Assembly: GCA_964016885.1 (NCBI GenBank)
Contig: OZ024743.1
Location: forward strand, 231,322,001-231,386,000
Length of the DNA stretch: 64,000 nt
DNA from: Eledone cirrhosa
Taxonomy: Eukaryota
Reading direction: 5' to 3'
This document shows, one piece after another, positions 14,185 through 59,736 of the stretch (its first letter is position 1; each line of letters begins with the position of its first letter). The notes below the pieces were generated by a model. That model was not told the origin of the DNA. It searched no databases and saw only the letters and a list, made by a program, of their open reading frames with translations. The position numbers and the translations under genes were made by a program.

Positions 14185-14187
<3 letters not shown>

Positions 14188-22607: not shown

Positions 22608-24366
22608 ATTATTTTTCATGAGCCTAAGAGCCACGTACATCCCATCTCATATCATTGATTAATTTCAGTGAGTATACATACATATATATATACATGGAGG
22701 TTTACTGTAAACGTAAATTAAATATAACTGCGAATTATAAGACGTAGCTATTAACATGAGGAATTTGGGAGTAAGCACATTTAATTATACCTCCTTACAC
22801 AGAAAAACTTACGAGATAGCTCCTATACCTACATTTCAGACGTTATTGTCTTTCTACCTATATGGTTCAATGTATGGAAGAATATCCCTATATCACCTTA
22901 TATTTTAATAGTAATCCTATGGTCTGTTGTTTTTAATTATGAGGGACTAGTGTGTACATTATGCTTATTTCTAAATTTATGACGGTAGGGAATTGACCCG
23001 AAGAACGTTAACCTTTATTTCTATTAGTTTTTGTAGCTACCAAGATGTATCTCTCACTAGCTCATATTACGGTTTACATATTTATAATTCATTAATGGGG
23101 AATATCAAAATTGCTGTCTTTTCTAAGCAAATACCTCCGTATTACTTTCAGCAGTTGGTTGATGTTGTTCCTTAAACCTGACCCGCCCCTGATTGAGATA
23201 AACATTCATCAACGCAAATCTAGTGGTAACCATAATGTTTTTCATATATTGCAATAGGCAATATGTGTATTTAGATAATAGAGTGTGATTTTATGGAGAT
23301 TAAACAACCGTACAATGAGCAATGTTTCTATTCAACCAGTATACATTGCGTTAATGCGTTACGCAAATGGTGATATTTGGAATAAACATTGTTATTCCTT
23401 ATGAAATACACTTTAGTGTGTGTTGACGTTTACAACTTTCCATTTCTTTCCATTTTGGATTGACGGTTTCAGTTAAATATCGATTATTGACGAAAACTGT
23501 TTCGAAAAAATGTGTAAGTAAAATGAAAATAAAATGAAATAACTAAAGCCATCGCATCAGCTTTGGTGAGAAACTAGCAAATATAGTCATGTTTTTAAAA
23601 ATATACTTTGTCACATCTACGTAATCAATTCATGTAAGAGGAAGGAAAAATAATTAAAATGTTACTATATCAACAAATATTTTCTTAATATTGATATACG
23701 TATCGGCACACTGTCTCCTTCATCGAAAATATCTTTACACAAGAGAACCACATTTTTCTTAATTTTCCAATCGTTTTTGAAATCACTAAGAGATTGAAAT
23801 ATTTTTAAAAATTAGATTACAGGACATCACAAATTATTTCGCAAGAGTGATTCTTGCTGGATGAAGGATATGAGAGTATTAAAATACACAACATATTTAT
23901 ACATAGTTAGGTCCAAACATGCGAACGAAGACATAATGGTATTTCTGCATCATGTTTGTATCGCATTTCTCCAAATATATAATTGACACAAAATTGAAAA
24001 TTTTCAGTAAACGAAAATTGGAAAGAAAATTAAACAAGTTAGAAGCAAAGTTCTCAGTTTAGAATATAAAAATTCCCTTCTGCCTGAATAGTTTTCAAAT
24101 TTATTATTCGTTATCCAGAGATTTTTTCCTGGAAGGACTTAAAAAGTAAAGATTGATAATGTACTACCAAATTGACATGTATATATTTGCACGCGTATGC
24201 ATAACCGGACATAGACATAAACATTCTCGTGCGCAGTGATGTATGCACATATATACACACGTAAATGTTTAAATAAAGGACGAAAGTGATCATGATTACA
24301 GGTCTGTGTATATATATAGACGTAAGTATATTAATAGACGTGCGTGTGTGCGCGAGCCTATTAGCC

Positions 24367-28003: not shown

Positions 28004-28165
28004 ATATATACTTTGGGAGGGTCATGTTGCCAATAAGAAACACACGCACCAGTTGCTTTCACTTCAATTTATTATATATTTATAAATTTATATATTTACA
28101 AATCTACAAACTTTTAAATTTCTGGTTGGTTGGTTGGTTCCACAACCAGATAGTTGTTTATATAT

Positions 28166-28210
28166 AGTCATAGTCCTTTCGTCACACACTCTGTGACCTC
28201 TTCAGTGACT
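28166..28210 (-). ncRNA. Minimal hammerhead ribozyme (pLTR copy 1)
   Basis: AGTCA-CTGAAGA-G-GTCACA-GAGTG-TGTGAC-GAAA-GGAC-TA-TGACT. Confidence 0.85.
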
Positions 28211-28426
28211 GGGGATTCCTTTCTTTGTTTCTGTGCCTTTCCTTTCTTCTGTCCTACGCCATTTTGTTTCTGTGTGTGTGTTGTGTGCTCAGTTTGCGCA
28301 TGCGCCACATCCGGGTGTCTGTGTGTGTTTGTGTTCATTTATCTATTTGTTTATTTATTTATTTATTTATTTACATGTTGTTGGTTGGTTGTTTGTTCTA
28401 TGTGTGTGTGTGTTTTCATTTTGTCC

Positions 28427-31400
28427 TTAATTGTAAGTTGTGATGTTGCTGTTCCACTCATATTTTCTATTTAATTTTGGTTGTAATTCTTTTATGCTTA
28501 CTGCCTCTGTAATTTGCCTAAACATTGCATCTTTTCTGTGTGTGGATTCTATTTTTATTTCTATGTTCTCTAATTTACCCTTGTGTTCTATCTTAGCATG
28601 TTGGTAGAGCACAGATGATTCTTTATTATCTTGAAGGTCTCGCCAGTGTTCATTTATTCGTTCCCCTATACTACGAGCTGTCTAACCTATGTACACTATA
28701 TTTTTGTTTCTACATTGTCCTTCAGTACATCTTATGCTATACACTACATTTCTAGTTTTACAGTTAATATGGGGGCTTATTTTACAGGTTATACATTCTT
28801 GTCTATACATGCGGGTCTTTGGAACGGGTATGTCTTGCTAATAATTGTTTTTACGGAGGTACCTGGTCTTTCTACTATCTTAATATTGAGTTTATGTTTA
28901 TTTAGGGCCCTTCTAAATTTGTAGGCTAGTTCGCCTCTAGGGGTTCTATTGATGAACATTACACTCTGGTATTTATTGCTATCATACCATGAGTTTATTC
29001 TATTGGCCTTGTTCCTAGTTCTTTCTATTCTATTCCAAAATTTGCACCTATACAAGGGGCAGGTCCCATTTATGTCATTATTTACCATTTTTTCCCATTT
29101 GGTTCTGGCTCCTCTATACACTCTGATTCTATCTCTCTGATTGTAGCCAGAAAACTGCATACGGTGGATGAAGTGTTGTATGTGTCTCTCTAGTTCTTCG
29201 GGGTTGCACATGCGGGACAGATTTCTCATCACCCGTACCAAATCCGCAATCAGTATGTTGATTTTGGTATGGTCCGAAATGGCCGAGTTTCGGTGGATCA
29301 GATGTTTGGAAGTCATGGGTTTGGCATAATGGGAATGGAGGATTTGTTTTTGGTTGTTAATGGTATCTAACCAGAGCTCTGTGTCTAGTACAGGTAATCG
29401 ATGGTTGGGGTGTCTACTTGGGTAGTCTATAGTAACTCTAATGCTCTGGTGGATGGAGTTTGCTATTTACTGGATGCTTTCCATTGTGTTTTTCTCTTGT
29501 TCCTGACTGTTATTTAGTGGGGGTGTCTTAACTACGATGTTTATATCATCTGCGTAGCGGGAGTACATTATCAGGGTTAAGCTGTCTTCTAATTGTTCTT
29601 TAAGTTTTTGTTTAAGTCTACTGTCCCACCATACCATGAATAGGTTAGCTATGTCGCCTGCAATGCTAACACCAATGGCTGCTCCTTTCTCTTGGGCATA
29701 TGTTTTACCATTAAATTTGAACATAAGTTCCTTAAGGGTTAATTTTATGCTGGCCCCTACCGCATGTGCAATCATTTTCTTCAGTTCATCGTGGTTTCCG
29801 GGTGTCCGTATGGCTCTGGTCCACCCGTTCCATCTATCTGTGTGGGTTTTCTTGGCCATTGAGGTAATGGTAGGTGGTCTGCCTCTTGCTGGTCTTGTAG
29901 GGCACAGGTTGCTAAGGTCATAAGTGTCTAGGTAACTATTACTATCGGTAAGCTTAAGTAGAAGTCCCAGATCACTGGTATCAATCCCACGGAACTCAAC
30001 CTTGCTCTCGCTGATCATTTCTACGCATTTCTCCACAGCAAAATCCCCGTCAATAGATGGATACAGGGACACAACATCCATACTGCCTATTATGCAGTTT
30101 GTTAGGTCCCCAGATCTGTTACTCACGCCGATTCTGCTGAGGAGGTCCTCCGTGCTGCCACATACATCTGTTGCCATCTCAATGATGGGGCGTATGATCA
30201 GGGAGAGGAAGTAGGACAGTCTGTAGTTACTAGCAATGTTAGCTCCACAGACTGGCCGTGTTGTTGGTCCCGCGACAGGGTCACAGCCCGTTTTATGGTC
30301 TTTTCGAAGCCCATACAACGCCGGCACGTCATTGTTCCAGGCCTGGAAGGTGTTGGCAGTCCTTTTGTTGGGCTGCATTATATTCGTCCACATCACCATA
30401 TGGGCATTGAGGGCTTTTTCTCTATCCTCATGCTCCTGTGGTGTTACCTCTCTTGTGTTAGTGATGTGGGGTTGCATTGCCTGGATGTAGTTTGGCAGGC
30501 TGTCAACCGACATTCTGCCAGACTTGTCTGTTGGAAAGCATGCTATCTCTCCATTACGTGAGCGCTGCATGAGCTTACGCAAGCCATTTGCAGATTTTTC
30601 TCCCAGTTGCTGGGCCTCTATTCTATTATGCTACTTGCTATACTGTTCTATAATATTTCTAAGTTCGGATTTAGCAATACTAAATTGTGCTTCTGTTTGT
30701 TCATCGACCTGCGACGGCAACTGCGTGCGTTTGTTAAATGGTAAAGTCGTGGCGTAGACTCGTCGCAGGTCGAATGATTTATCGGAGGGATTATAAAACG
30801 GAGTGTTCCAGGCTGCTGCTTTATGTGTACTAGTGCTATTGTTATTGTTAGTTGCGTTGTTTCTATTTCTATTTCCCCCAACAGCCTCATGGTTGTTTCT
30901 ATGTCTCTCATAATTACTCATGTCTCTTTCCACTGGCTCAATGTTGTTATCTACCCTATTTTGTGTGTCTGTGTGTTCGTCTTGGTTATTCTCTTTGTCC
31001 TTAGTCTCCCATCTCCTTTTCCTTTTAATCTTATTACTTTCCCTTATTTCTCTGATTGCTGTGGTACTGTCATTACTTGTTTTCTGTGTCTGTGTGTTTG
31101 TTAAGATTGTGGTGGTGGTGAGAGGCATTGAATGCGTGTGTGTTGTTGTTGTTGATGTGTGCTGTTGTTGATGTGTGTTGTTGTTGTCTCCGTGTGTGTT
31201 ATCGTTGTTGTGTGTGTTGTTATTGTTGTTTGTGTCTGCGTGTCTGTTGTTGTTGTTTCTGGGTATGTTGCTATTGTTGTTGTTGTTAATGTGTGTGTTG
31301 TTGTTATTGTTGTTTGTGTCTGTGTGTCTGTTGTTGTTGGGATGTGTGTTGTATATGTGTGTGCGTATATTGTTGCTTTTGTTTTTCATGCTCCAGCGTA

Positions 31401-32117
31401 GTTTTGTAAATGATTTTTCTATTTCTGACAGACAACTAATCATATTTACCTTCTTGAATGTCGCAAATTTGGGCGGCAGACATAACGCAGATATTTCATC
31501 ATTATCTATTTTTGCGTTCCCATAAATGTTGGTGTTTTTGTTGTTGAACTCTTCTGATAATGAGGTGTCGGTCATCTTGATACCGTCAATTTTGTCGGGA
31601 TATCTATTGGTATACTCTATAGTATCCTGATTTAGCTTTGCCTGTTTAAGCCACTTTAGTTTCCTGTTAAGGTGCTTATCACATTCTTGAGTAATGTACT
31701 GTTCTTCGGGGCGTATAAGGCTTATAAATATTAGTTTCTCTGTTGGTGTGGTGATTCTAGCTACTTCTTGTATTGAGTTACGCTTTTGTTTTTCTTGATG
31801 ACTTAATTCTCTACAATCTTCTTTTTTATGTTTAGAATTAAAGTTCGTTTTAGCCTATCTGCTTGTTTTTTGGTGAGTTGTAATCTTCTAACGTCGGTAT
31901 TGATGGTGTTGGTGTAGATTCTAGAAGTGGCGGACAGCTTTATGAAGGATAGTTGTCGAGATGTTATGGTTTTTCGTAGACAACAGAACATGGTGGTTTT
32001 CAGTATCTTGTTAGCCTGGCTAAGACTTACGATATTTCGTTTCTGAATTTGTTTAGCAAGATTCTTTATCTGAAATCGTGTGTTGAAACCGATATTGTTA
32101 TACTTTGGAAGGGTCAT
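28427..32117 (-). pseudogene. PLE polyprotein (N-terminal Asn/Thr-rich region, RT, Zn knuckle, GIY-YIG), interrupted by stops and frameshifts
   Basis: PTDKSGR, LYGLRKDHK, RPVCG, SMDVVSLYPSI, KGAAIGVSIAGDIANLFM, YSRYADD, HYAKPM, NVVYSIRC...VYIG. Confidence 0.9.
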
Positions 32118-32257
32118 GTTGCCAATAAGAAACACACGCACCAGTTGCTTTCACTTCAATTTATTATATATTTATAAATTTATAATTTTACAAATCTACA
32201 AACTTATAAATTTCTGGTTGGTTGGTTGGTTCCACAACCAGATAGTTGTTTATATAT

Positions 32258-32302
32258 AGTCATAGTCCTTTCGTCACACACTCTGTGACCTCTTCAGTGA
32301 CT
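32258..32302 (-). ncRNA. Minimal hammerhead ribozyme (pLTR copy 2)
   Basis: Identical to the 28166-28210 motif. Confidence 0.85.
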
Positions 32303-33170
32303 GGGGATTCCTTTCTTTGTTTCTGTGCCTTTCCTTTCTTCTGTCCTACGCCATTTTGTTTCTGTGTGTGTGTTGTGTGCTCAGTTTGCGCATGCGCCAC
32401 ATCCCTGTGTCTGTGTGTGTTTGTGTTCATTTATCTATTTGTTTATTTATTTATTTATTTATTTACATGTTGTTGGTTGGTTGTTTGTTCTATGTGTGTG
32501 TGTGTTTTCATTTTGTCCTTAATTGTAAGTTGTGATGTCGCTGTTCCACTCATATTTTCTTTTTAATTTTGGTTGTAATTCTTTTATGCTTACTGCCTCT
32601 GTAATTTGCCTAAACATTGCATCTTTTCTGTGTGTGGATTCTATTTTTATTTCTATGTTCTATAATTTACCCTTGTGTTCTATCTTAGCATGTTGGTAGA
32701 GCACAGATGATTCGTTATTATCTTGAAGGTCTCGCAAGTGTTCATTTATTCGTTCCCCTATACTACGAGCTGTCACACCTATGTACACTATATTTTTGTT
32801 TCTACATTGTCCTTCAGTACATCTTATGCTATACACTACATTTCTAGTTTTACAGTTAATAAGGGGGCTTATTTTACAGGTTATACATTTCGTATCTATA
32901 CATGCGGGTCTTTGGAACGGGTATGTCTTGCTAATAAGTGTTTTTACGAAGGTACCTGGTCTTTCTACTATCTTAATATTGAGTTTATGTTTATTTAGGG
33001 CTCTTCTAAATTTGTAGGCTAGTTCGCCTCTAGGGGTTGTATTGATGAACATTACACTCTGGTATTTATTGCTATCATACCATGAGTTTATTCTATTGGC
33101 CTTGTTCCTAGTTCTTTATATTCTATTCCAAAATTTGCTCCTATACAAGGGGCAGGTCCCATTTATGTCA

Positions 33171-33953
33171 TTATTTACCATTTTTTCCCCATTTGGTTCT
33201 GGCTCCTCTATACACTGTGATTCTATCTCTCTGATTGTAGCCAGAGAACTGCATACGGTGGATGAAGTGTTGTATGTGTCTCTCTAGTTCTTCGGGGTTG
33301 CAGATGCGGGACACATTTCTCATCACCCGTACCAAATCCGCGATCAGTATGTTGATTTTGGTATGGTCCGAAATGGCCGAGTTTCGGTGGATCAGATGTT
33401 TGGAAGTCATGGGTTTGGCATAATGGGAATGGAGGATTTGTTTTTTGTTGTTAATGGTATCTAACCAGAGCTCTGTGTCTAGTACAGGTAATCGATGGTT
33501 GGGGTGTTTACTTGGGTAGTCTATAGTAACTCTAATGCTCTGGTGGATGGAGTTTGCTATTTGCTGGATGCTTTCCATTGTGTTTTTCTCTAGTTCCTGA
33601 CTGTTCTTTAGTGGGGGTGTCTTAACTACGATGTTTATATCAACTACGTAGCGGGAGTACATTATCAGGGTTAAGCTGTCTTCTAATTGTTCTTTAAGTT
33701 TTTGTTTAAGTCTACTGTCCCACCATACCATGAATAGGTTAGCTATGTCGCCTGCAATGCTAACACCAATGGCTGCTCCTTTCTCGTGGGCAAATGTTTT
33801 ACCATTAAATTTGAACATATGTTCCTTAAGGGTTAATTTTATGCTGGCCCCTACCGCATGTGCAATCATTTTCTTCAGTTCATCGTGGTTTTCGGGTGTC
33901 CGTATGGCTCTGGTCCACCCGTTCCATCTATCTGTGTGGGTTTTCTTGGCCAT
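33171..33953 (-). pseudogene. PLE RT C-terminal half (tandem partial copy)
   Basis: KGAAIG...YSRYVVD (catalytic DD mutated); continues by frameshift into the EN ORF 32660-33052. Confidence 0.85.
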
Positions 33954-34054
33954 TGAGACACCCCAACCATCGATTACCTGTACTAGACAAAGAGCTCTGG
34001 TTAGATACCATTAATAACCAAAAATAAATCCTCCATTCCCATTATGGCAAACCC

Positions 34055-34804
34055 ATGACTTCCAAACATCTGATCCACCGAAACTCGGCCATTTCGGACC
34101 ATACCAAAATCAACATACTGATTGCGGATTTGGTACGGGTGATGAGAAATGTGTCCCGCAAGTGCAACCCCGAAGAACTAGAGAGACACATACAACACTT
34201 CATCCACCGTATGCAGTTCTCTGGCTACAATCAGAGAGATAGAATCAGAGTGTATAGAGGAGCCAGAACCAAATGGGAAAAAATGGTAAATAATGACATA
34301 AATGGGACCTGCCCCTTGTATAGGTGCAAATTTTGGAATAGAATAGAAAGAACTAGGAACAAGGCCAATAGAATAAACTCATGGTATGATAGCAATAAAT
34401 ACCAGAGTGTAATGTTCATCAATACAACCCCTAGAGGCGAACTAGCCTACAAATTTAGAAGGGCCCTAAATAAACATGAACTCAATATTAAGATAGTAGA
34501 AAGACCAGGTACCTCCGTAAAAACAATTATTAGCAAGTCATACCCGTTCCAAAGACCCTCATGTATAGATAAGAAATGTATAACCTGTAAAATAAGACCC
34601 CATATTAACTGTAAAACTAGAAATGTAGTGTATAGCATAAGATGTACTGAAGGACAATGTAGAAACAAAAATATAGTGTACATAGGTGAGACAGCTCGTA
34701 GTATAGGGGAACGAATAAATGAACACTGGCGAGACCTTCAAGATAATAACGAATCATCTGTGCTCTACCAACATGCTAAGATAGAACACAAGGGTAAATT
34801 ATAG
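34055..34804 (+). pseudogene. PLE thumb + Zn knuckle + GIY-YIG endonuclease (inverted copy)
   Basis: CIDKKCITC...NVVYSIRC...VYIGETARSIGERINEH; premature stop. Confidence 0.85.
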
Positions 34805-35161
34805 AACATAGAAATAAAAATAGAATCCACACACAGAAAAGATGCAATGTTTAGGCAAATTACAGAGGCAGTAAGCATAAAAGAATTACAACCAAAATTA
34901 AAAAGAAAATATGAGTGGAACAGCGACATCACAACTTACAATTAAGGACAAAATGAAAACACACACACACATAGAACAAACAACCAACCAACAACATGTA
35001 AATAAATAAATAAATAAATAAACAAATAGATAAATGAACACAAACACACACAGACACCCGGATGTGGCGCATGCGCAAACTGAGCACACAACACACACAC
35101 AGAAACAAAATGGCGTAGGACAGAAGAAAGGAAAGGCACAGAAACAAAGAAAGGAATCCCC

Positions 35162-35206
35162 AGTCACTGAAGAGGTCACAGAGTGTGTGACGAAAGGACT
35201 ATGACT
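35162..35206 (+). ncRNA. Minimal hammerhead ribozyme (pLTR copy 3)
   Basis: AGTCACTGAAGAGGTCACAGAGTGTGTGACGAAAGGACTATGACT. Confidence 0.85.
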
Positions 35207-35424
35207 ATATATAAACAACTATCTAGTTGTGGAACCAACCAACCAACCAGAAATTTATAAGTTTGTAGATTTGTAAATTTATAAATTTATAAATATATAA
35301 TAAATTGAAGTGAAACAACTGGTGCGTGTGTTTCTTATTGGCAACATGACCCTCCCAAAGTATAACAATATCGGTTTCAACACACGATTTCAGATAAAGA
35401 ATCTTGCTAAACAAATTCAGAAAC

Positions 35425-35484
<60 letters not shown>

Positions 35485-36551: not shown

Positions 36552-36697
36552 ATATAGAATAAAAATATATCCATAATGCATTACAAGTGAGATGTGTTGT
36601 GTCATATCTGTCATATATAAAGACAGAGAGAGAGAGGGGAGGGAGACAGATTGAGATACAGAAATATATATGTATATATCGGACTCATACTTTTTCC

Positions 36698-36759
<62 letters not shown>

Positions 36760-36908
36760 GGAAAAAGTATGAGTCCGATATATACATATATATTTCTGTA
36801 TCTCAATCTGTCTGTCTCCCCCCCTCTCTCTCTCTGTCTTTATATATGACAGATATGACACAACACATCTCACTTGTAATGCATTATGGATATATTTTTA
36901 TTCTATAT
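36552..36908. repeat. Long palindrome: ~150 bp arms around a (TA)n core
   Basis: 36552-36705 is the near-perfect reverse complement of 36751-36908. Confidence 0.95.
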
Positions 36909-37560: not shown

Positions 37561-39760
37561 CGAAGGAAATGTGGTAAGGAATCAGATGGACCATAACGCA
37601 CCAAAGTACTCAATACTTAGGGTAGTAGAGTGGGTAATAGGAACGAGTAGGAATCCCGGCGGCTGAGCTCAAGCCGTTTCGACGGGTAATTCTGGACTAA
37701 ATGAAAATGTTTATCCTGGTAAATGAATAGCCGAACTTTTCAGGGGGTAATTCCATATATGGTAGAAGTGATTGTCACAAGGATTGGTCAAAAGAGATAG
37801 AGAGTTACTATGCTTCAATTACCTTACCGCTCCTTGGACTTTGCCGAGACACTTGCGCCCATCACCGACCAGAAAAGAAATATCATCCTCTACGCCAGGA
37901 AGACAGTCCTACTTTTCGACAACTCCAAATGGATAAAAAGAGCTCCTGACTCCCCCTTCGACGTCGTTATGGGCGCGACGCATTCGGCTGAGGTCACAGA
38001 TCTTATAGGATTATTCCTACTAGTTAAACTCACCGATATGTTTCCTGCTTTCGGCCGTGGATTGTACCGTGATGATGGGCTCTTTACCCTTAAAGGGTAC
38101 AACACCAGTAGTACAGACCGGGTGCGTAAACAATTAATCAGCTTCTTCCGCGACTGGGGATTTAAAATAACCCTACAAACGTCCCTAACCCGAGTAAACT
38201 TCCTGGCGTTACCCTTAACCTCGATAATGATCTGTACTACCCATACAGGAAATCAAACGACAACCTGCACTACGTCCACCGCCTGTCGAACCATCCTAGA
38301 AATATCACCAATAACCTGGTTAAAAACATCTCCCTCCGCATATCTCGTTTGTCCGCGAATGAGCAGATATTCGAGGAACATGCGCATAATTAGAACCAGG
38401 CCCTCAAGCGGAGTAGCTTCCGGCAGGAAATATCCTATTGTCCAGCCCCCATTGGCGGAACCAGTAGGCGACACCGGCGCTCACGCAACGTAACATGGTT
38501 CAATCCTCCCCATAACGCCGAGGTGACAACACCTATCGGGAAAATCTTCATTAGGCTCATCGAAAAACACTTCCCACTACAACACCGCTACCACAACATA
38601 ATCAACAAAAATACCATCAAACTCTCCTACAGCACCACACCAAACTTTGCACAAAACATCGTCTCCTCTAACAACAAAAACTCAACCCCTATGGAAGAAA
38701 TAACCTAGATAGCAGTGGAGAACCCACCAGGAGCTGTAACTGTCCTGATGGATCCATTTGCCCCCTCGACAACAGATGCAGATATCGTAATGTTATCTAC
38801 CAGTGCAACGTGACGACGGACACCTCCAACAAAGTTTATATAGGATTAACCGCTTGTTACTTCAAGACCCGGCTATACCAACACAGACATACTTTCCGAA
38901 ACCCAGTCCGGCGTCACGCCACTACACTTTCGGGCCACATCTGGGACCTCAAAAATGACAATATAACCTATAATCTCTCTTGGTGCTTACTGTCCAGAGC
39001 CAACTCTTACACGGGAGGATGCCGTCCGTGTAACTTATGCTCAGAGGAAACATTACAAATGGTGTTTTCGACGGACCAACTCCTAAACAAGAAAGACGAT
39101 CTGGTACTGCATGCAAACAGATTGCGTAGGACATACCTTGCCCTCAAATCCCATAATGACCCGGGGGGGGGGCAACCAAGGGCTGAAACACCCCACTTGC
39201 CGACTTTGTAATGGGTAACCCTTGCTTACAAAGGTAGACGTAACTTTTCTGTAAAGATTTTCTTATATATTTTTTATCGTTTCTTCTATATTTCCTTCTT
39301 CCCCCATCCCTCCTTGTCCTTCCATCCCAGATCTCCTTCTTTGACGTCGTTCTTTTCAGCTTCTCGCCCACCCCGAAGCTGCCCTTCGGTCCTCTGTAGC
39401 CTCAGTACCCCCACCCCTCTTATTCTATGATAGAATTGCCGATTCCGCTTTTTATAGCAGATGTGCTAGACCCCCAGATACTTGCTTTCTTCTCTGATTG
39501 CTGCCCCATTTCCGTGATTTCTAGATTTCTTAGTGGTATTTCTGCTTTAGTTTCTCGTATATCAGTATTTTTGGTTAGTCTGAATTAATTTTTCGTATTA
39601 GTTTTTAATATATATTGTACGAGCATTTATGTAGTTTGTATTAGAATTTATGTATTGTAGCAGTACTTATATATATCGTATTAGTATTCATGTTTCGGGG
39701 TTCTGAATTAATATTTCCTATTAGTTTCGGGACTCTGAATTATTATTTCGTATTGTTTCG
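37559..39760 (+). mobile_element. Naiad-like PLE remnant (RT-EN on +) preceded by an inverted family E pLTR (37559-~37800)
   Basis: FDVVMGATHSAEVTDLIG, GLYRDDG, WFNPP, CNCPDGSICPLDNRC..VIYQC, VYIGLT, CNLCSEE; frameshifted. The right boundary is approximate. Confidence 0.85.
37653..37748 (-). ncRNA. Degenerate hammerhead of family E (long stem II)
   Basis: ACCCC-CTGAAAA-...-GAAA-CGGC...GCCG-CC-GGGAT. Other copies show GCCG-TC-GGGGT, which restores GUC and stem I. Confidence 0.6.
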
Positions 39761-39762
39761 CC

Positions 39763-40620
39763 ATCAATAAAACAGGGAAAAAACCACAAGTGTATGGAAT
39801 CTATAACCTATGAAAGGCATGGTAGACACACGATAAATAAAAATATAAACTAAAGTGTAAATACGTACCTCTATAACTATATAACACACGTACAAATCCA
39901 AAGAGATCTGTTTCGTCAAGAAGTTGTTGACTGAAATGAGGTAGCCCATGTTTCATCAGCGCATGCAATACTATACATTCCAGACAATTCTAAGAGAATC
40001 TAAAGCGACTGCCCAGCTACACGAGGGAGAGAGTGTCACAGCATGTTTAGGGCAGTGAACCAGTGGTGTCTGAGGGACGAGCTGCTAGAAAGGGCAGCAC
40101 AAAACCATTCAGAGAAGTGTGCTGGACCAAACAGAGAGAGAGGAAAGATTTATAACGAGCTAAATATCACGATAAATTAACGGAGCCATAGACTCTCGCT
40201 ATTCCCTGTCAATAATGTACTCAAAGGAGAAGGAATCCTGAGTTCTTTAAAATACAATATGTTGGAAAGGTAACACACTAGAGAGAGATAGTGTGCCATC
40301 AATAAAATAGGGAAAAACCACCAGTGTATGGAATCTATAACCTATGAAAGGCAGGGTAGACACACGATAAATAATAATATAAACTAAAATGTAAATACGT
40401 ACCTCTATAACTATATAACACACGTACAAATCCAAAGAGATCTGTCTTACACACGCTGATGAACCATGGGCTACTTCATTTCAGTCAACAACTTCTTGAC
40501 GAAACAGATCTCTTAGGATTTGTACGTGTATTATATAGTTATAGAGGTACGTATTTACACTTTAGTTTATATTTTTAATTATCGTGTGTCTACCCTGCCT
40601 TTCGTAGGTTATAGATTCCA
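39763..40620. mobile_element. PLE-like remnant with direct (39763-39960, 40296-40445) and inverted (40446-40620) pLTR segments
   Basis: Repeated ~150-200 bp segment; HHR-like CTGATGA...GTCAA..TTGAC-GAAA-CAGATC-TC at 40456-40512 (+) and 39903-39959 (-). Confidence 0.65.
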
Positions 40621-40627
40621 ACACCGA

Positions 40628-41130
40628 CACATACTTATATTTAGTTATCAGCCGTACTTAGAGTGAGGAATGAAATTTCGTTTCATTCTTTTCCATTTAT
40701 CGTTTTCAGTATGCCCGGCCAACCAACTCACACGATATGCAAATTAGGCTGCTCAGCCGTTAATATGCATAAGGAAAGTATATACTTTCACACGTTCAAT
40801 CGACTGACAGGAAGGTATACGGTGCTGATGACAGCTAATAAGCTAGAAACTAGTTCATCGTTCCTTTGTCAGTGTTGAAGAAAAGGGCAACGATGGTTGG
40901 CGAGCACTGCACGGCTTAATTCGGGCTGTTTGTTTACAAAAAAGCCGAACATTATAATAAATGTTCGGTAAACCCATACGTACATATATATATATGTGTG
41001 CATGCATGTATGTATATACATACTACTGTACGTCTGTATACATATATGTATGTACGTATACATACTTATATTTAAGTATCAGCCGTAGTAAGACTGACAA
41101 ATGAAATTTCTTTTTTTCTCTTTATCGTTT
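40628..41130 (+). mobile_element. Dispersed copy of the ~400 bp HHR repeat (family F)
   Basis: Homologous to the 47530-50400 units; HHR CGGTG-CTGATGA-CAGCT-AATA-AGCTA-GAAA-CTAG-TT-CATCG at 40820-40860. Confidence 0.85.
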
Positions 41131-41969
41131 TCGTGTGTGTGTGCATGTGTGTATGTGGATGCATGTCTACCTACATGTACAGTATATGAAGGTAGAAATT
41201 GAAACTGAATATTATTTTCAAATATAACACGTACAAAAATTTTGACAAAGCATTTGAGATTGTCTGCAAAATCCCCTTGCTTGTTTGAAAATATTGAAAG
41301 AAGCCATAGCATACCCGGAACAAATGAGATTACATTCCATGATTTACCAACGGCTGGAAAATGTCCTCGACAGTGTCTGCAATTTGATATTCAATATTAA
41401 GCTCAGGCATTCATGTGTCAATACGTTGAGCAGAGTTTATCATGGGCAGATATGTCAAAACTACGTGATCTCATCATATTAAATAAAACAAGCGCAGTAA
41501 CACATGCAATTGTAGCGTTCTTTGCTATTTCAAACTATGCAATGTATAGTCGTATATACATACAGTTAAGAACTGTAAAATATAATCACTGCTTTTGCTA
41601 ACCTGTATTCTTTTCCAACGCAAGCTCTATATATATGCCTCTGCGGAGTTAACATCTGAAATACACTGCACATTGTAAACGTCACATTCCCAATATTTTT
41701 ATATACGTAGCATTATATGATGTAGTTTTAGTGCTTCAGTCACGTGGTATTTATTACGGTTCCATGTGTTCTGTGTTCAAATGTGCTTGGCACGTAAGAT
41801 ATTCATCATTCTGTATCAGATAAATAGAGTACTCGTCTATGACGATAGAAGGGTGACGTTTCTAGAGTGAGAAACCGACAGCCCTGCTGTATCTATTTCT
41901 CTATTTCGATTCTATACATTTAGATTGAAGAGACTTCTATAGCATGATTATATAGATGTAATCCACCAA

Positions 41970-43371: not shown

Positions 43372-44165
43372 TATTAGAATTGGAGCTCTGAAATAGCAAT
43401 ATATATATGGATGTATATATAATGTATTTTGCAATACACTTTATGCTTAATTAAAAGCAGTTTGAAGACGGTCTTCAAAATGCTTTTAATTAAGCATAAA
43501 GTGTATTGCAAAATACATTATATATACATCCATATATATATATTGCTATTTCAGAACTCCAATTCTAATTTTTAATTTCTGCCTGACCAACAACCGCTCT
43601 GCATAATCAGCTCCTGATTATTTACTAGATTTCTATAAGAATATAACATCAATGATCTCAGTAAACAGGTGGGGTAGTTGGCCTTGATAAGCTCCAACCA
43701 AAGCGAAACAAGACTTGTCGGCTTATCTCCCCTGTTTGCTGATATCAAAGTGAGTGAATTTGTCACTACTTTAAAACAATAGCTTACGGTCTTCAAAATG
43801 TTTTTAATTAAGCATAAAGTGTATTGCAAAATACATTATAAATACATCCATATATATATTGCTATTTCAGAGCTCCAATTCTAATTTTTAATTTCTGCCT
43901 GACCAACAACCGCTCTGCATAATCAGCTCCTGATTATTTACTAGATTTCTATAAGAATATAACATCAATGATCTCAGTAAACATGTGGGGTAGTTGGCCT
44001 TGATAAGCTTCAACCAAAGCGAAACAAGTCTTATTGGCTTATCTTCCCTGTTTGCTGAGATCAAAGTGAGTGAATTTGTCACTACTTTAAAACAATAGCT
44101 TACGGTCTTCAAAATGCTTTTAATTAAGCATAAAGTGTATCACAAAATACATTATATATACATCT
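43372..44165 (+). repeat. ~316 bp tandem array with one HHR per unit and a left-end fold-back
   Basis: Unit marker GGTCTTCAAAATG at 43470, 43788 and 44104; HHR at 43680-43723 and 43996-44039; palindrome centred at ~43470. Confidence 0.9.
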
Positions 44166-44187
44166 ATATATATATATATATTTTTTT

Positions 44188-45465
44188 GATTTAATGCTCT
44201 GAAATAGCGATATATATGTGAAGACAAACATAGAATATTCGAAAATATTCTGTATGTTTATAATAAACATTTTGAAGACCTAATCGCTATAGGATAGAAT
44301 ACGTCACGTATTACAATTTGAGATTCTCGATAAAAGCAAGGGAAGTAACCTACGCGTTTCATTCTTATTAGAAATCTTCAGGATTACATATCCAATGCTT
44401 TTATCGATAATGACACAGCTAGAGACTTATAGAATACTTAGCTGTGTACAGGAACTGGTTTGAAAGAGCGGTTGCCGGTCCGGCAGAAATTAGAATTTGG
44501 ATTTAATGCTCTGAAATAGCGATATATATGTGAAGACAAACATAGAATATTCGAAAATATTCTGTATGTTTATAATAAACATTTTGAAGACCTAATCGCT
44601 ATAGGATAGAATACACAGCTAAGTATTCTATAAGTCTCTAGCTGTGTCATTCTCGATAAAAGCATTGGATATGTAATCCTGAAGATTTATAATAAGAATG
44701 AAACGCGTAGGTTACTTCCCTTGCTTTTATCGAGAATCTCAAATTGTAATACGTGACGTATTCTATCCTATAGCGATTAGGTCTTCAAAATGTTTATTAT
44801 AAACATACAGAATATTTTCGAATATTCTATGTTTGTCTTCACATATATATCGCTATTTCAGAGCATTAAATCCAAATTCTAATTTCTGCCGGACCGGCAA
44901 CCGCTCTTTCAAACCAGTTCCTGTACACAGCTAAGTATTCTATAAGTCTCTAGCTGTGTCATTCTCGATAAAAGCATTGGATATGTAATCCTGAAGATTT
45001 CTAATAAGAATGAAACGCGTAGGTTACTTCCCTTGCTTTTATCGAGAATCTCAAATTGTAATACGTGACGTATTCTATCCTATAGCGATTAGGTCTTCAA
45101 AATGTTTATTATAAACATACAGAATATTTTCGAATATTCTATGTTTGTCTTCACATATATATCACTATTTCAGAGCATTAAATCCAAATTCTAATTTCTG
45201 CCGGACCGGCAACCGCTCTTTCAAACCAGTTTCTGTACACAGCTAAGTATTCTATAAGTCTCTAGCTGTGTCATTCTCGATAAAAGCATTGGATATGTAA
45301 TCCTGAAGATTTCTAATAAGAATGAAACGCGTAGGTTACTTCCCTTGCTTTTATCGAGAATCTCAAATTGTAATACGTGACGTATTCTATCCTATAGCGA
45401 TTAGGTCTTCAAAATGTTTATTATAAACATACAGAATATTTTCGAATATTCTATGTTTGTCTTCA
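44188..45465. repeat. 312 bp tandem array with one canonical HHR per unit and an internal inversion at ~44612
   Basis: GTAATC-CTGAAGA-TTTCT-AATA-AGAAT-GAAA-CGCG-TA-GGTTAC at 44673-44715 (one stem II substitution), 44985-45027, 45297-45339 (+) and 44345-44387 (-). Confidence 0.92.
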
Positions 45466-45727
45466 TATATATATATATATATATATATAAATATATATAT
45501 ATATGGGATAATAAGTTATCGTTATAGGTGATCCACTTAGAGGTAGTCCGGTTAGAGTACTCCGTGTTGTGAATGGTTTTAACGTGAAACTTAGTTTGAC
45601 TCAACAAGATGCTTCCAAAGTGTTGCAGCGAGTTCGCCGTAGTTTCTATGCAGGTCATAATTGGAGTAATAATAGTTAAAGAAAGAAGAGTAACATGGTT
45701 GGCTGTACAATAAGGGCTTTATTAAAA

Positions 45728-46456: not shown

Positions 46457-47268
<812 letters not shown>

Positions 47269-47490
47269 TTTATTAAAATAACAGATTAAAGTTTAAGCAA
47301 AGAATCGCTGCTTTCACCCTTAACGGGATCTTCTGAAACTCAGTTTCAGAAGATCCCGTTAAGGGTGAAAGCAGCGATTCTTTGTTTAAATTTTAATCTG
47401 TTATTTTAATAAAAATTTGCTCTACGGTTCTTATATATTTGATATATATGTATCCTTATCGAGCCCTCTTTGGATTTAGTCTTCAAATTT

Positions 47491-47505
<15 letters not shown>
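47269..47505 (+). mobile_element. Family C pLTR fragment with near-perfect fold-back duplicating an HHR
   Basis: Palindrome centred at 47341; HHR at 47290-47340 (-) and 47342-47392 (+); homologues at 62338-62500 and 37130-37178. Confidence 0.85.
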
Positions 47506-47522
<17 letters not shown>

Positions 47523-47527
47523 TATAT

Positions 47528-50405
47528 AAACGGAAAAAATGAAACGAAACTTCATTTCACACTCTTAGTACGGCTGTTAGTTAAATATAAGTATGTACAC
47601 GTACATACATATATGTATACTGACGTACAGTAGTATGTATATATATATATATACATACATGCACACATATATATATGTACGTATGGATTTACCGAACATT
47701 TATTATAATGCTCGGTGGGTTTGTAAACAAACATCCCGTATTGAGCCGTAGTGTCCAGCAACCATCGTTGCTCGTTTGTTCAACACTGTAAAAGGAACGC
47801 TGTACTAGTTTCAGGCTTATTAGCTATCGTCAGCAACGTATACCTTCCTGCCAGATTGTTGAACGTATTTACTTACCTTATGCATATTAACGGCTGGGTA
47901 GCCCAATCTGCATACCGGGTGGGTTAATCGGCCGGGTGCACCGAAAACGATAAAGGGAAAAAATTTAAAAATAAAATTACAAAGAATCAGTCCGGAGCCT
48001 TGTAGTTATATAATAGATGTTTGGTGACGTGTGGACAACGTGTGAAAAATTCACCTCTCGGGTTTAGGCAATCACTATTACGTAATCTCTTTTGGACAGT
48101 TATTCGGGCGTCAATACATAAGCCGCACGTCTGATTTCCCCTTGCGTATGGCTTGAACTTAGTGATGGCTTTCCATTGAATGGAGTACCCTATACGTGAG
48201 TCCTTGAGGGACCATACGTGGCTCGCGAGTTTCGTGGATGAATGTCTGTCCGGGTACCTGAAGGTAGACTGGTGGTTCAGGAAACGCTCCTTGAATCGGC
48301 CCTCCGCCATGCCCACATAGTATTTGATATCCTGGGGTTCGTTTGGTCGGTTGGAAGTGACCACAGCTTCATAGATTACAGCTGGTGTGTTGCATTGTTG
48401 TTGAAGGGGGCAAGCTTCAGGCTTACGTCAAGAGCACCTGGTGGGGTGTTGCTCCTAGGAATGCTGGTGATGTGGGGCTTCATGTACTTAGCGCAGGAGT
48501 ATCCTAGTTTAACTTTGTGTCGGTTAAAGATGGAGCGGTATTTATGACCTATGGGGAAGTGTCTATCTAAGAGGGTTAGACTTTTTTTCCTACATTGGTT
48601 TTAACGTTGAGTGAGAAGGGAGGAGAGAACCAGATAGTTTGTCTATTGATGAGCTTACTTTTTTAATGGTGTTGTTGCTAGTGCGAGAGTAGCTGATAGG
48701 TTGTGAGAAGCCGCTGTTAGCCAACGCCGTGTTATAGTAGGGTGATGTCCAGCACCCATCGGTGCGGTACATCGTCAGCATCGTATACCTTCCTGCCAGA
48801 TGGTTGACCGTCTGAAAGTACATACTTTCCTCATGCATATTAACGGCTGAGCAGCCTAATTTGCATATTGTGTGAGTTCAGTCGGCCGGGCACAGCGAAA
48901 ACGATATATGGAATAGAATGAAACGAAATTTCATTTCTCACTCTTAGTACGGCACATACTTAAATGTAAGTATGTTTGTATGTATACGTACATACATATA
49001 TGTATACAGACGTACAGTAGTATGTATACATATACATACATGCACACATATATATATGCACGTATCGGTTTAACGAACATTCATTATAATGCTAGGTTTG
49101 TTTGTTTGTAAACAAACAATCAGCCCGAATTACACCGTACAGTGTTTAGGCAACCACGTCACCTTTTTGTTCAACACTTACACAGGAACGATGTACTAGT
49201 TTCAAGCTTATTAGCTATCGTCAGCATCGTATACCTTCCTGCCAGAAGGTTGAACTTCTGAAAGTATATACTTTCCTCATGCATATTAACGGCTGAGCAG
49301 CCTAATTTGCATATAGAGTGAGTTCAGTCGGCCGGGCACACCGAAAACGATAAATGGAATATTATATATATATATATATATATAAAGTACGTATACGTAC
49401 ATACATATATGTGTACAGACGCACAGTAGTATATATATATACATACATGCACATATATATATATGTACGTATGGATTCACTGAACATTTATTATAATGCT
49501 CGGTGTGTTTGTAAACAAACATCCCGAATTAAGCCGTACAGTGTCTAGCAACCATCGTTGCTCATTTGTTCAACCCTGACAAAGGAACGCTGTACTAGTT
49601 TCAAGCTTATTAGCTATCGTCAGCAATGTATACCTTTCTACCAGATGATTGAACGGCTGAAAGTATATACTTTCCTTATGCATATTAACGGCTGAGCAGC
49701 CTAATTTGCATATCGAGTGAGTTAATTGGCCGGGGTACCGAAAACGATAAACGGAAAAAAATTAAACGAAATTTCATTTCTCACTCTTAGTACGGCTGTT
49801 ACTTAAATATAAGTATATATACGTACATACATTTATGTATACAGACGTAGAGTAGAATGTATATATATACATACATGCACACATATATATATATGTACTT
49901 GAAACTTACAGTAGTATGTATGTATATATATATATATATATACATACATTCACACTTATATATATGTGTGCATGTATGTACCCCGGTCGATTAAACTCAC
50001 TCGATATGCAAATTAGGCTGCTCAGCCGTTAATATAAATGAGGAAAATATATACTTTCAGACATTCAATCATCTGGCAGGAAGGTATACGTTGCTGACGA
50101 TAGCTAATAAGCTTGAAACTAGTACAGCGTTCCTTTGTCAGGGTTGAACAAATGAGCAACGACGGTGCCTAGACACTGTACGGCTTAATTCGGGATGTTT
50201 GTTTACAAACACACCGAGCATTATAATAAACGTTCGGTGAATCCATACGTACATATATATATATGTGTGCATGTAAGTCATATATGTATATACATACTAC
50301 TGTACGTCTGTATACATATATGTATGTACGTATACATACTTATATTTAAGTAACAGCCGTACTAAGAGTGAGAAATGAAATTTCGTTTCATTTTTTTTCG
50401 TTTAT
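47528..50405 (-). mobile_element. Naiad-like PLE remnant with tandem ~400-450 bp HHR-bearing pLTR units and a terminal inverted unit (49985-50405)
   Basis: HHR CG(A/T)TG-CTGACGA-TAGCT-AATA-AGCTT-GAAA-CTAG-TA-CA(T/G)CG at 47798-47838, 49189-49229, 49588-49628 (-) and 50089-50129 (+); EN fragment 47987-48745. Confidence 0.88.
47987..48745 (-). pseudogene. PLE thumb/Zn finger/GIY-YIG fragment
   Basis: IWFSPPFS, RHFPIGHKYRSIFN..KLGYSC, CS*RKPEACPLQQQC..VIYEA, YYVGMAEGRFKERFLNH, CGLC, CPH. Confidence 0.85.
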
Positions 50406-53874: not shown

Positions 53875-54610
53875 TGGGGGATTGGCAGTATTGTAAAAAC
53901 GTTGGACAACATGCTTTGCATCACACAATTACCACCCTTTATATTATGAGTTCAAATCCTACGAAGATTAACTTTACCTTTTATCCTTATGTGCTCGATA
54001 AAATAAAGAACCAATAATGCACAGGGGCCGATTTAATAGTTTCCCCCTTCCCTTCAAATTCCTGGTCTTGTACGAAAAGAAACAATTACTCCTGTAATGG
54101 TGAGTATTGTGTAGTGCACTGTGCATAATCATAGGGGTTATGATTTGCAGATTGCAATTGTTGAGTTCGAGTCAAGGCGGTGAGTTGTGTCATTCTGAAA
54201 ATCATAATATTTCTGGTCGCTCCAGATCACTCAGCTACAAACAATCATTGTTTGAGGTGCAATGTTCATGAGAGTTATGTTAAGTGAAATGTTCAGCCGC
54301 TTGCACGCTAAATTTCACGAGCTGCCTAAACGCTTATAAAACAATTGGAACACTTATCGTCGAAATCAAGATAGGTTCAACTAACCAAGGAATCATTGTC
54401 GGTGGATTGACAGAATCGTTAGAGAGCCGCGAGAATGCTAACCAATATATGTTTCGAATCTTAATTTCTCAGTTCAAATCCAGCCGTGGTTAATTTTGCT
54501 CTTCCTTCTGGGGGTCACAAAATAAAATAGCAGTTAAGCTGGGGGTTGATAGAATCGGTATAGCCCTTCTCGCAATTTGCCAGCCTTGCTCAAATGTTAA
54601 AATCATTATT
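53875..54610 (+). mobile_element. Cluster of three old tRNA-derived SINEs (A, B-like, A)
   Basis: B-boxes GAGTTCAAATCC (53948), GAGTTCGAGTC (54164) and CAGTTCAAATCC (54470) with degenerate family bodies. Confidence 0.7.
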
Positions 54611-55850: not shown

Positions 55851-56030
55851 AACACGAAGGAAATGTGGTAAGGAACCAGATGGACCATAACGCTCCAAAG
55901 TACTCAATACTTAGGATAGTAGAGTGGGTAATAGGAACAAGTATGACCGCGACGGCAGAGCTCAAGCCGTTTCGACGGCTAAATTAGCTGTCGAAACGGC
56001 TTGAGCTCTGCCGTCGGGGTCATACTTGTT

Positions 56031-56035
<5 letters not shown>
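55851..56035 (-). mobile_element. Family E pLTR fragment with near-perfect fold-back
   Basis: Arms 55931-55981 and 55983-56035 are inverted; flanked by (TA)n. Confidence 0.85.
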
Positions 56036-57500: not shown

Positions 57501-57668
57501 ATATTGGGATGTATCATGAAAGATAGTAAATCATCATTGACAAAGGTTAAATTCCTACCGTCAATATATGTTTAACAGAAAGTATGCTGCTTATAAATAG
57601 CAATACGCACACACACATACATATATATGTATATATGCAAATGTATATATATATATATATATATATAT

Positions 57669-59698
57669 AGAATTAGTATATCTACCAACATGTGTATACA
57701 GATGTATACCTATGCTAGCAAATATATATGTTATGTCTTAGTACCTTTGTGGTTCTATGCAGGGGGATGCAGAAACATTATATGAAAGACGTAAAATAAG
57801 AAAATTAAAAAAATTAAAAATTAACTTACTTACTAAAATTTTCACTCCAACTAATTAGTTTCTGTAAGGGAGTAAATATAGTTACGTAATGTAACTACAG
57901 AGAATTCCTTACGTCATCGGGAGTATATTCTCAGCTAAGTTCCCAGACAATGCGCGAACACTAGGAACCCATATAAAAATAATAATTCAGTGGATGGAAT
58001 AAAGCTAGCAAGGACTAAATTCCAGAGCACTGAAAAAATTCACTGCCTACTGGGTCAGTGGCAAATTATAAAGAATCAATCACGTGACACTGAGGTCAAA
58101 CAGTGAGGAGTTGGATGGTATTATGACAAGTACCTACTACTACTACCATGAACCATGGCAGTCAATTTTGGCAAGTTTTACTCAACAAATAATTTGGAGA
58201 TAAATATAGAGAATTAGTATATCTACCAACATATGTATACAGATGTATACCCATGCTAGCAAATATGTATATTATGTCTTAGTACCTTTGTGGTTCTATG
58301 CAGGGGATGCAGAAACATTATATGAAAGACGTAAAATAAGAAAATTAAAAAAATTAAAAATTAACTTACTAAAATTTTCACTCCAACTAATTAGTTTCTG
58401 TAAGGGAGTAAATATAGTTACGTAATGTAACTACAGAGAATTCCTTACGTCATCAGGGAGTATATTCTCAGCTAAGTTCCCAGGCAATGCGCGAACACTA
58501 GGAACCCATATAAAAATAATAATTCAGTGGATGGAATAAAGCTAGCAAGGACTAAATTCCAGAGCACTGAAAAAATTCACTGCCTACTGGGTCAGTGGCA
58601 AATTATAAAGAATCAATCACGTGACACTGAGGTCAAACAATGAGGAGTGGGATGGTTTTATGACAAGTGCCTACTACTACTACCATGAACTATGGCAGTC
58701 AATTTTGGCAAGTTTTACTCAACAAATAATTTGGAGATAAATATAGAGAATTAGTATATCTACCAACATATGTATACAGATGTATACCCATGCTAGCAAA
58801 TATATATGTTATGTCTTAGTACCTTTGTGGTTCTATGCAGTGGGATGCAGAACAATTATATGAAAGGCGTAAATTAAGAACATTTAAAAAATTAAAAATT
58901 AACTTACTTACTAAAATTTTCACTCCAACTAATTAGTTTCTGTAAGGGAGTAAATATAGTTACGTAATGTAACTACAGAGAATTCCGTACGTCATCAGGG
59001 AGTCTATTCTCAGATAAGTTCCCAGGCAATGCACGGACAATAGGAACCCATATAAAAATAATAATTCAGTGGATGGAATAAAGCTAGCGGGGACTAAATT
59101 CCAGAGCACTGAAAAAATTCACTGCCTAATTTTTAAAATTTTCTTATTTTACGTCTTTCATATAATTGTTCTGTATCCCCCTGCATAGAACCACAAAGGT
59201 ACTAAGACATACCATATATATTTGCTAGCATGGGTATACATCTGTATACATATGTTGGTAGATATACTAATTCTCTATATTTATCTCCAAAGTATTTGTT
59301 GAGAAAAACTTGCCAAAATTTAAAGCCATGGTTCATGGTAGTAGTAGTAGGCACTTGTCATAATACCACCCCACTCCTCACTGATTGACCTCAGTGTCAC
59401 GTGATTGATTCTTTAGAATTTTCCACTGACCCAGTAGGCAGTGAATTTTTTTCAGTGCTCTGGAATTTACTCCCCGCTAGCTTTATTCCATCCACTGAAT
59501 TATTATTTTTATATGGGTTCCTAGTGTCCGCGCATTGCCTGGGAACTTAACTGAGAATAGACTCCCTGATGACGTAAGGAATTCTCTGTAGTTACATTAT
59601 GTAACTATATTTACTCCCTTACAGAAACTAATTAGTTGGAGTGAAAATTTTAGTAAGTAAGTTAATTTTTAATTTTTTAAATTTTCTTATTTTACGTC

Positions 59699-59703
<5 letters not shown>
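57669..59703. repeat. ~540 bp tandem array with one HHR per unit and a terminal inverted unit (59129-59703)
   Basis: ACTCC-CTGATGA-CGTAAGG...CCTTACA-GAAA-CTAATTAG-TT-GGAGT at 59561-59642 (+) and 57844-57924, 58380-58461, 58922-59003 (-). No ORF. (TA)n flanks. Confidence 0.92.

Positions 59704-59736
<33 letters not shown>

What the first reader, a model, noticed from the sequence alone, without database searches (positions are those of the whole stretch)
47528..50405. Possible intermediate between PLE pLTR and free HHR array
Seen: the ~400-450 bp HHR unit directly follows the GIY-YIG stop, so it acts as the 3' pLTR. It also forms a ~2.7-unit tandem with no ORF in between, an inverted unit, and a stand-alone copy at 40628-41130. 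Inference: pLTRs can multimerise and move without the ORF, a plausible origin for the ORF-less arrays at 43-45 kb and 57-59 kb.
Basis: partly seen in the sequence, partly recalled or inferred. Interest (0 to 1): 0.72.

Follow-up and report, generated by a model that had tools for sequence, protein, structure and literature searches.

The report
Hammerhead retrozyme joined to Penelope gene
A very abundant 430-base repeat with a predicted self-cutting RNA motif sits here both on its own and joined to the end of a broken Penelope-type jumping gene, which suggests that it arose from that gene's end piece and is likely copied by its enzyme, a route already proposed for such repeats.

Summary
A ~430-bp type I hammerhead unit follows a decayed Hydra-clade Penelope-like (PLE) endonuclease ORF after a 37-nt spacer. 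It also occurs as ORF-less head-to-tail copies, an inverted copy and a 1.2-unit solo.

The '2.7-unit tandem' is not one array. Neighbouring units are 84% identical, a (TA)n tract splits them, and they belong to different widespread variants. Local crossover does not explain it. In public runs the unit is laid about 10-20 times deeper than the ORF, and its end-to-start junction is common, so it behaves as a non-LTR retrozyme. Its 70-nt tail resembles this ORF's own end and not four other Hydra ends, which supports a pLTR origin. Whether the ORF-unit junction recurs elsewhere is not settled.

The 43-45 and 57-59 kb arrays are other families, not offspring of this unit, but show the same two-armed PLE footprint. 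The idea is in print (Li et al. 2026 preprint; Craig 2021; Cervera 2020), and this scan noted the footprint many times elsewhere in this genome. Verdict: new member of a known kind.

The parts
47526..47949 (-). Copy E: full unit behind the ORF, ends at the 'long' 3' end in (TA)n
47797..47839 (-). Type I hammerhead of copy E (core 47833-47827, predicted cut after 47803)
47950..47986 (-). 37-nt T-rich spacer between stop codon and unit start; its last 14 nt repeat the unit's own 3' end
47987..48745 (-). 5'-truncated, frameshifted Hydra-clade PLE ORF (end of RT thumb, linker, GIY-YIG-type endonuclease); open frame 48427-47990
48746..48903 (-). Copy D': C-type head up to the hammerhead core, then a short E-type piece (48765-48746) that abuts the ORF
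48904..49362 (-). Copy C: full unit of a distinct variant (start 49349) with a 13-nt lead-in from a previous unit's end; hammerhead core 49224
49363..49385 (.). (TA)n tract between copies B and C, the likely target of the two-armed insertion
49386..49746 (-). Copy B: unit ending at the 'short' 3' end (no tail); hammerhead core 49623
49747..49898 (-). Copy A': last 152 nt of a unit joined exactly to the start of B
49899..49981 (.). TA-rich centre between the two back-to-back arms
49982..50405 (+). Inverted arm: near-full unit ending at the 'long' 3' end in (TA)n; hammerhead core 50094
40629..41133 (+). Solo 1.2-mer: 72-nt tail, full unit 40701-41125, 8 nt of the next start; hammerhead core 40825
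43373..44183 (.). Other family: 316-bp units, two-armed, U3-A8 hammerhead-like core
44184..45474 (.). Other family: 312-bp units, two-armed, same hammerhead layout as the unit but different sequence
57659..59707 (.). Other family: ~541-bp units, two-armed, long helix II hammerhead

Best explanation
The ~430-bp unit is a high-copy, ORF-less repeat with a predicted hammerhead ribozyme (a non-LTR retrozyme) that likely arose from the 3' end of this Hydra-clade Penelope-like family and is likely copied by that family's reverse transcriptase/endonuclease into (TA)n tracts. Shown: copies join exactly end to start, have two fixed 3' ends ~60 nt apart, and lie as back-to-back arms in (TA)n. Inferred: multimer transcripts would self-cleave and circularise, and the PLE enzyme would prime on both strands of a (TA)n cut and copy slightly more than one round, giving 1.0-1.4-unit arms. 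The cluster is best read as at least two or three events: an older ORF-bearing copy (D' tail, ORF, E), a C-D' piece, and a two-armed ORF-less insertion (inverted arm with A'-B), with a later local deletion or crossover making D'. The neighbouring arrays are separate families that likely use the same route.
For: Exact end-to-start junctions at 4 places (A'-B, C-D', solo 5' and 3') plus a 13-nt lead-in on C. Reads at 80% likeness: median unit bin 20-22 times the median ORF bin, 9-10-fold step at the boundary; loose ends at 47964 read as the unit's own end (1817 and 1426 reads), head-to-tail joints 47953>47530 and 47936>47530, and a second end at 47585 running into (TA)n. C-type letters are abundant in reads (loose ends at 47591 and 47775), so C is a widespread variant. 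Stem I changes keep pairing (U-G, A-U, G-U). ORF is Hydra-like: 110 of 176 homologues hold CxCx5C; DKT in 6 of 14 long ones. The unit's 70-nt tail aligns to this ORF's last 33 nt plus spacer (p 0.002-0.017 for 5 of 5 tails) and not to 4 other Hydra ends (p 0.19 or more). Stop-to-core 153 nt. The U-helix II-U layout matches many published Hydra hammerheads. The ORF has E-type sequence on both sides (18 of 20 nt, p 0.002). Subtracting the 47964 loose ends leaves 1736 and 1351 reads on the unit side against 1288-1600 and 1171-1419 on the ORF side, compatible with a recurring junction.
Against: No read or contig is shown bridging stop and unit; 1699 loose-end rows were hidden, so the depth arithmetic is not proof. 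Without the last 14 nt the tail likeness weakens (p 0.005-0.15; 3 of 5 under 0.05), and one control window (H15) was placed off register. E's 5' letters are near-absent from reads (about 1-3% in raw reads), so E cannot be shown to be an ORF-linked subfamily. The unit runs 273-333 nt past the hammerhead window, longer than 23 of 24 published Hydra ends (87-210 nt). Two metagenome Hydra loci have long helix II hammerheads unlike the unit's. Summed depth is no copy number; the 4 runs are at most 3 samples and 2 studies, hold only 0.25-0.27 of the words, and may be the source or a relative. Cleavage is untested: 8 of 9 predicted Xenopus retrozymes did not cleave in vitro, and cleavage was not needed for insertion by an anole PLE.
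Confidence: 0.6

Rival explanations
1. The unit is an independent retrozyme, and the ORF-unit junction is a one-off chimera: the reverse transcriptase switched between retrozyme RNA and a Hydra mRNA at the shared 14-nt T-rich stretch, or the two were joined by recombination. It would still be moved by a PLE enzyme but is not this element's pLTR.
For: The junction lies in a 14-nt match to the unit's own end. The unit is far more abundant than the ORF. D' joins the ORF at a point that is neither fixed end. The unit extends further past the hammerhead than most Hydra ends.
Against: The tail resembles this ORF's last codons, beyond the 14-nt match, and not other Hydra ends. It needs two switches with E-type RNA (both ORF flanks). 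Read counts on the two sides of the junction balance.
Confidence: 0.25
2. All copies are simply 5'-truncated partial tandems of an autonomous PLE made by repeated template jumps; there is no separate retrozyme RNA or circle.
For: PLEs give 5'-truncated tandem and inverted copies with a tail. A 14-nt direct repeat flanks the unit in E and could guide jumps.
Against: Truncation should fall off gradually; depth steps 9-10-fold at the unit boundary. Junctions recur at one point, and the solo copy reads through the junction twice. Variants keep stem I pairing.
Confidence: 0.1
3. The tandem grew locally by unequal crossover at the internal microsatellite.
For: D' looks like a local recombinant between a C-type and an E-type unit. 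C and D' are 95% alike.
Against: Junctions are at the unit end, not in the microsatellite. B and C are 84% alike and split by (TA)n. The tree joins only C with D' (100/96). C-type letters and the junction are abundant in reads.
Confidence: 0.04

Closest known systems
Metazoan non-LTR retrozymes (Cervera and de la Pena 2020, PMC7229834; passages and section 13 read)
   Same: 150-450 bp AT-rich units, canonical type I hammerhead with short palindromic helix III, head-to-tail copies, no ORF, strongly self-paired predicted circle (z -5 to -8.6, partly from the TA-rich hairpin).
   Different: Here one copy is joined to a PLE ORF, and arms are back-to-back with two fixed ends. Circular RNA and cleavage are not shown for this family.
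Retrozymes as non-autonomous PLE derivatives (Li, Clavereau, Pollet 2026, bioRxiv 10.64898/2026.07.22.740005; parts 1-3 of 5 read, supplements closed)
   Same: Same thesis: 24 of 57 Xenopus retrozyme families match annotated elements, nearly all PLE termini; monomers, dimers and multimers coexist.
   Different: Their homology test is on Xenopus. They state that they did not test other organisms and lean to local amplification for arrays; this case is a Hydra-clade element in an invertebrate and the cluster is not locally amplified.
Hydra clade of endonuclease-bearing PLEs (Craig et al. 2021, PMC8557442; passages, section 11, supplement parts 2 and 52 read)
   Same: C-terminal endonuclease, CxCx5C linker, CxxC and CxH motifs, no CCHH, (TA)n targets, hammerhead near the 3' end, tandem/inverted copies with a tail. 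The paper also reports non-autonomous Chlamys elements with multicopy head-to-tail insertions.
   Different: No ORF-less multimer of a Hydra end was seen in the parts read. Helix III is 2 bp here against 3-4 bp in listed Hydra motifs, and the 3' end is longer.
Anole Poseidon PLE in vitro (Frangieh et al. 2024, PMC11167929; parts 1-2 of 4 read)
   Same: Cuts and extends both strands at AT-rich DNA and starts reverse transcription at two internal sites that define the tail, which fits two arms with two ends.
   Different: There the pLTR overlaps the ORF start and the tail is 30-40 nt; here the tail is ~60 nt and resembles an ORF end.

Membership tests
Non-LTR retrozyme | Type I hammerhead in each unit | tested here: met
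   5 of 5 near-full copies parse as type I; D' is broken and A' lacks the region
Non-LTR retrozyme | Short (150-450 bp), low-GC units in head-to-tail copies without ORF | tested here: met
   419-445 bp, GC 0.36-0.39; exact junctions in window and reads
Non-LTR retrozyme | Two consecutive units with complete hammerheads (Li et al. 'active' rule) | tested here: inconclusive
   B and C both complete, cores 399 nt apart, but split by (TA)n and of different variants
Non-LTR retrozyme | Self-cleavage and circular RNA | not testable with these tools
   needs bench work or RNA reads
Hydra-clade PLE (ORF) | CxCx5C linker | tested here: inconclusive
   This copy reads C-S-stop-R-K-P-E-A-C (second Cys is a stop); motif present in 110 of 176 homologues
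Hydra-clade PLE (ORF) | C-terminal endonuclease with CxxC and CxH, no CCHH | tested here: met
   CGLC and CPH in the frame; invariant columns of 30 homologues. Pfam gave no hit on this frame; the GIY-YIG label rests on homologues and the paper
Hydra-clade PLE (ORF) | RT motifs RWK, DKT | tested here: inconclusive
   RT core missing at this locus; DKT in 6 and RWK/KWK in 7 of 14 homologues over 400 aa
Hydra-clade PLE (ORF) | (TA)n insertion and hammerhead in the 3' end | tested here: met
PLE pLTR | The sequence is the regular 3' end of ORF-bearing copies | tested here: inconclusive
   one junction in the window; depth arithmetic compatible but indirect
PLE pLTR | Repeated at both sides of a full-length ORF | tested here: inconclusive
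   ORF is truncated; 20-nt E-type piece lies upstream of it
PLE insertion footprint | Inverted 5'-truncated copy and optional tail | tested here: met
   one long and one short end in 4 of 4 two-armed ORF-less structures examined

The most novel reading that the evidence does not exclude
The locus preserves a retrozyme's birth record and its driver. The unit would be the hammerhead-to-hammerhead interval of two Hydra 3' ends that landed in one TA tract (last 11 codons, 3' UTR, hammerhead, 183 nt to a normal Hydra end, then a TA-rich hairpin), cut out and circularised by its own ribozyme. The same sequence would now serve as the 3' end of an ORF-bearing Hydra family and as a far more abundant parasite of it, giving a matched enzyme and RNA pair for a direct test of rolling-circle copying.
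Probability: 0.3. Interest if true: 0.65.

Novelty: new member of a known kind. Interest (0 to 1): 0.4.

Why it matters
Which enzyme moves animal retrozymes, and how they arise, is proposed but not shown in the papers read. A family in which the same 430-nt sequence is attached to a Hydra-clade ORF and also spreads alone would name a candidate enzyme and substrate, and would extend the Xenopus result to an invertebrate clade that the preprint did not test. The concept itself is published and the footprint was already noted many times in this genome, so the gain is a test case, not a new class.

Tried and rejected
Rfam scan: microsatellite-driven microRNA matches, no hammerhead family among the 150 rows shown. 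No whole genome held, so no genome-wide copy map. Pfam: 0 families on 4 window frames and only sub-threshold hits on 5 homologues. Word-based protein search for longer relatives: none. No RNA holder listed among 7 runs; this is no evidence on expression. Exact 26-nt hammerhead pattern in metagenome contigs: 0 matches. Sequence look-up in earlier findings: none. Cluster members of 10 homologues carried no names. Rejected: descent of the 43-kb and 57-59 kb arrays from this unit; local crossover as the origin of the tandem; E as a mosaic with an ORF-family-specific 5' part (its letters are rare in reads); reading the in-frame TGA in the linker as selenocysteine (the copy has frameshifts nearby, and I have no test). 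An attempt to read the junction from restriction-site logic in the RAD runs was inconclusive, since uncut sites are common.

Full report
Context. The window is AT-rich animal DNA (GC 34%), crowded with (TA)n tracts and PLE relics: Hydra-type frames at 14.9-16.4 kb and 37.8-39.2 kb and another RT-bearing element at 28-35 kb. No whole genome is held. An earlier scan note calls the genome a cephalopod; I did not test that.

Anatomy. On the minus strand the locus reads: A' (last 152 nt of a unit), B, a (TA)n tract, C, D', a truncated ORF, a 37-nt spacer, E, (TA)n. An inverted near-full unit lies back to back with A' and ends in (TA)n. A further copy at 40629-41133 holds a 72-nt tail, a full unit and 8 nt of the next start. 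The same unit-start motif follows a unit end at 4 places, and C begins with 13 nt of a unit end. B stops ~60 nt short of the end used by E and the inverted arm.

Hammerhead. Five of 5 near-full copies parse as type I: 6-bp stem I with an extension beyond a bulge, CUGAnGA core, 4-bp helix II with an AAUA loop between two U residues, and a palindromic CUAG helix III. One stem I position varies as U-G, A-U and G-U; copy B has one mismatch. This is the canonical animal layout, described as working in dimers (PMC4209133, passages). The U-helix-U pattern recurs in many Hydra motifs of PMC8557442 File S2. Rfam listed no hammerhead among 150 of 210 rows shown. Units fold as circles 5-8.6 SD below shuffles; the 5' 260-284 nt alone give z -2.3 to -3.9, so much of the signal is the TA-rich hairpin.

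ORF. The open frame 48427-47990 has 4109 relatives at E up to 0.001, best 45% identical. Homology starts at 48745 and has frameshifts. CxCx5C is in 110 of 176 proteins held, and DKT in 6 of 14 over 400 aa; in this copy the second Cys codon is a stop. With CxxC, CxH, no CCHH and (TA)n flanks this fits the Hydra clade (PMC8557442 section 11). Pfam found nothing on the frame.

Is the tandem local? No. Pairwise identity is 83-90% among full copies, B-C 84%, C-D' 95%, A'-inverted 95%. A tree of 6 rows supports only C with D'. In 4 public runs laid on 47530-48800 (at most 3 samples, 2 studies), letters typical of C appear as the largest loose-end classes (23748 and 9799 reads in X5), so C is a widespread variant. 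D' is the exception: its head is C-type and its last 20 nt match E (18 of 20, p 0.002; C p 0.47), which looks like a local deletion or crossover.

Does the unit spread without the ORF? In the two contig runs the median unit bin is 20-22 times the median ORF bin, with a 9-10-fold step at the boundary (summed depth is no copy number). Loose ends at the unit start read as the unit's own end (1817 and 1426 raw reads), head-to-tail joints are listed, and a second 3' end at 47585 runs into (TA)n as copy B does. Two ends, two arms and (TA)n targets match the PLE footprint. The same long-and-short end pattern is in 4 of 4 two-armed ORF-less structures of the window; earlier scan notes prompted that check.

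Is it this element's pLTR? For: stop-to-core distance is 153 nt; the unit's tail aligns with this ORF's last 33 nt plus spacer for 5 of 5 tails (p 0.002-0.017) and with none of 4 other Hydra ends (one control off register); E-type sequence flanks the ORF on both sides; and after removing the loose ends at 47964, reads left on the unit side (1736, 1351) match those on the ORF side (1288-1600, 1171-1419). Against: no bridging read is shown and 1699 loose-end rows were hidden; without the last 14 nt only 3 of 5 tails stay under p 0.05; E's own 5' letters are rare in reads; the unit runs 273-333 nt past the hammerhead window against 87-210 nt in 23 of 24 published Hydra families; and two metagenome Hydra loci have a different, long helix II. 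The distance to the unit's internal TA tract, 183 nt, lies in the published range, which suggests, as inference, that the original end was there and the rest was captured from a neighbouring truncated copy. The recurrence of the junction stays open.

Other arrays. The unit does not match the 43-kb (p 0.18) or 57-59 kb arrays (p 0.44) and is marginal to the 44-kb array (p 0.03, one of 14 tests); the 43- and 44-kb arrays match each other (p 0.01). The helix II of the 57-59 kb array matches that of two unrelated Hydra loci (21 of 25 nt, p 0.001 for L002; p 0.006 for L001), a hint that it came from another Hydra end.

Known work. PMC7229834 defined animal non-LTR retrozymes and named PLEs as likely movers. 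The 2026 preprint finds 24 of 57 Xenopus families homologous to annotated elements, nearly all PLE termini, and only 1 of 9 cleaving in vitro. PMC8557442 reports non-autonomous head-to-tail Chlamys elements. Three searches listed no paper on a Hydra-linked retrozyme in a cephalopod; the library is incomplete and the preprint's supplements are closed. The scan noted PLE-footprint retrozymes repeatedly elsewhere in this genome (16 notes shown); none of the lines shown describes an ORF-unit junction of one family, though one mentions a hairpin shared with a coding family.

Verdict. A real and well-formed example of a known kind. Retrozyme behaviour is well supported by sequence, origin from this Hydra family is likely (about 0.6), and cleavage, circles and the enzyme link are untested. 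Interest 0.4.

Noticed in passing
window 43684 and 44000: The 316-bp array has a U3-A8 hammerhead-like core instead of C3-G8, a variant reported in PMC4209133.
   Followed up: partly
window 57659-59707; L002 887-930; L001 1941-1990: Helix II interior of the ~541-bp array matches the hammerheads behind two metagenome Hydra ORFs (p 0.001, 0.006).
   Followed up: partly
window 28007-35432: RT-bearing PLE of another type in three pieces at 98% identity, tandem and inverted, each with a hammerhead-like motif; related short copies near 43.3 and 46.3 kb.
   Followed up: no
window 14180-16424 and 1-935: Hydra-type element with a 338-aa frame; its 3' part recurs inverted at the window start (90%); hammerhead-like motif near 14350 is degenerate.
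   Followed up: partly
window 37801-40624: Third Hydra-type relic followed by a tandem/inverted repeat with an atypical hammerhead-like motif at 39959 (-) and 40456 (+), which abuts the solo unit.
   Followed up: no
window 48428-48430 (-): In-frame TGA at the second Cys of the CxCx5C linker; more likely decay than selenocysteine, since indels lie beside it.
   Followed up: no
window 11522-11679, 36552-36908, 47155-47529, 55931-56035: Several near-perfect palindromes, some centred on (TA)n, which may be short two-armed insertions.
   Followed up: no
window 1572-1760, 3390-3576, 18681-18772, 21154-22614, 53876-54534: A dispersed ~185-bp repeat family in at least 8 copies on both strands.
   Followed up: no
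window 13699 (-) and 50568 (+): Two related hammerhead-like motifs with a TA-rich helix III, of yet another family.
   Followed up: no
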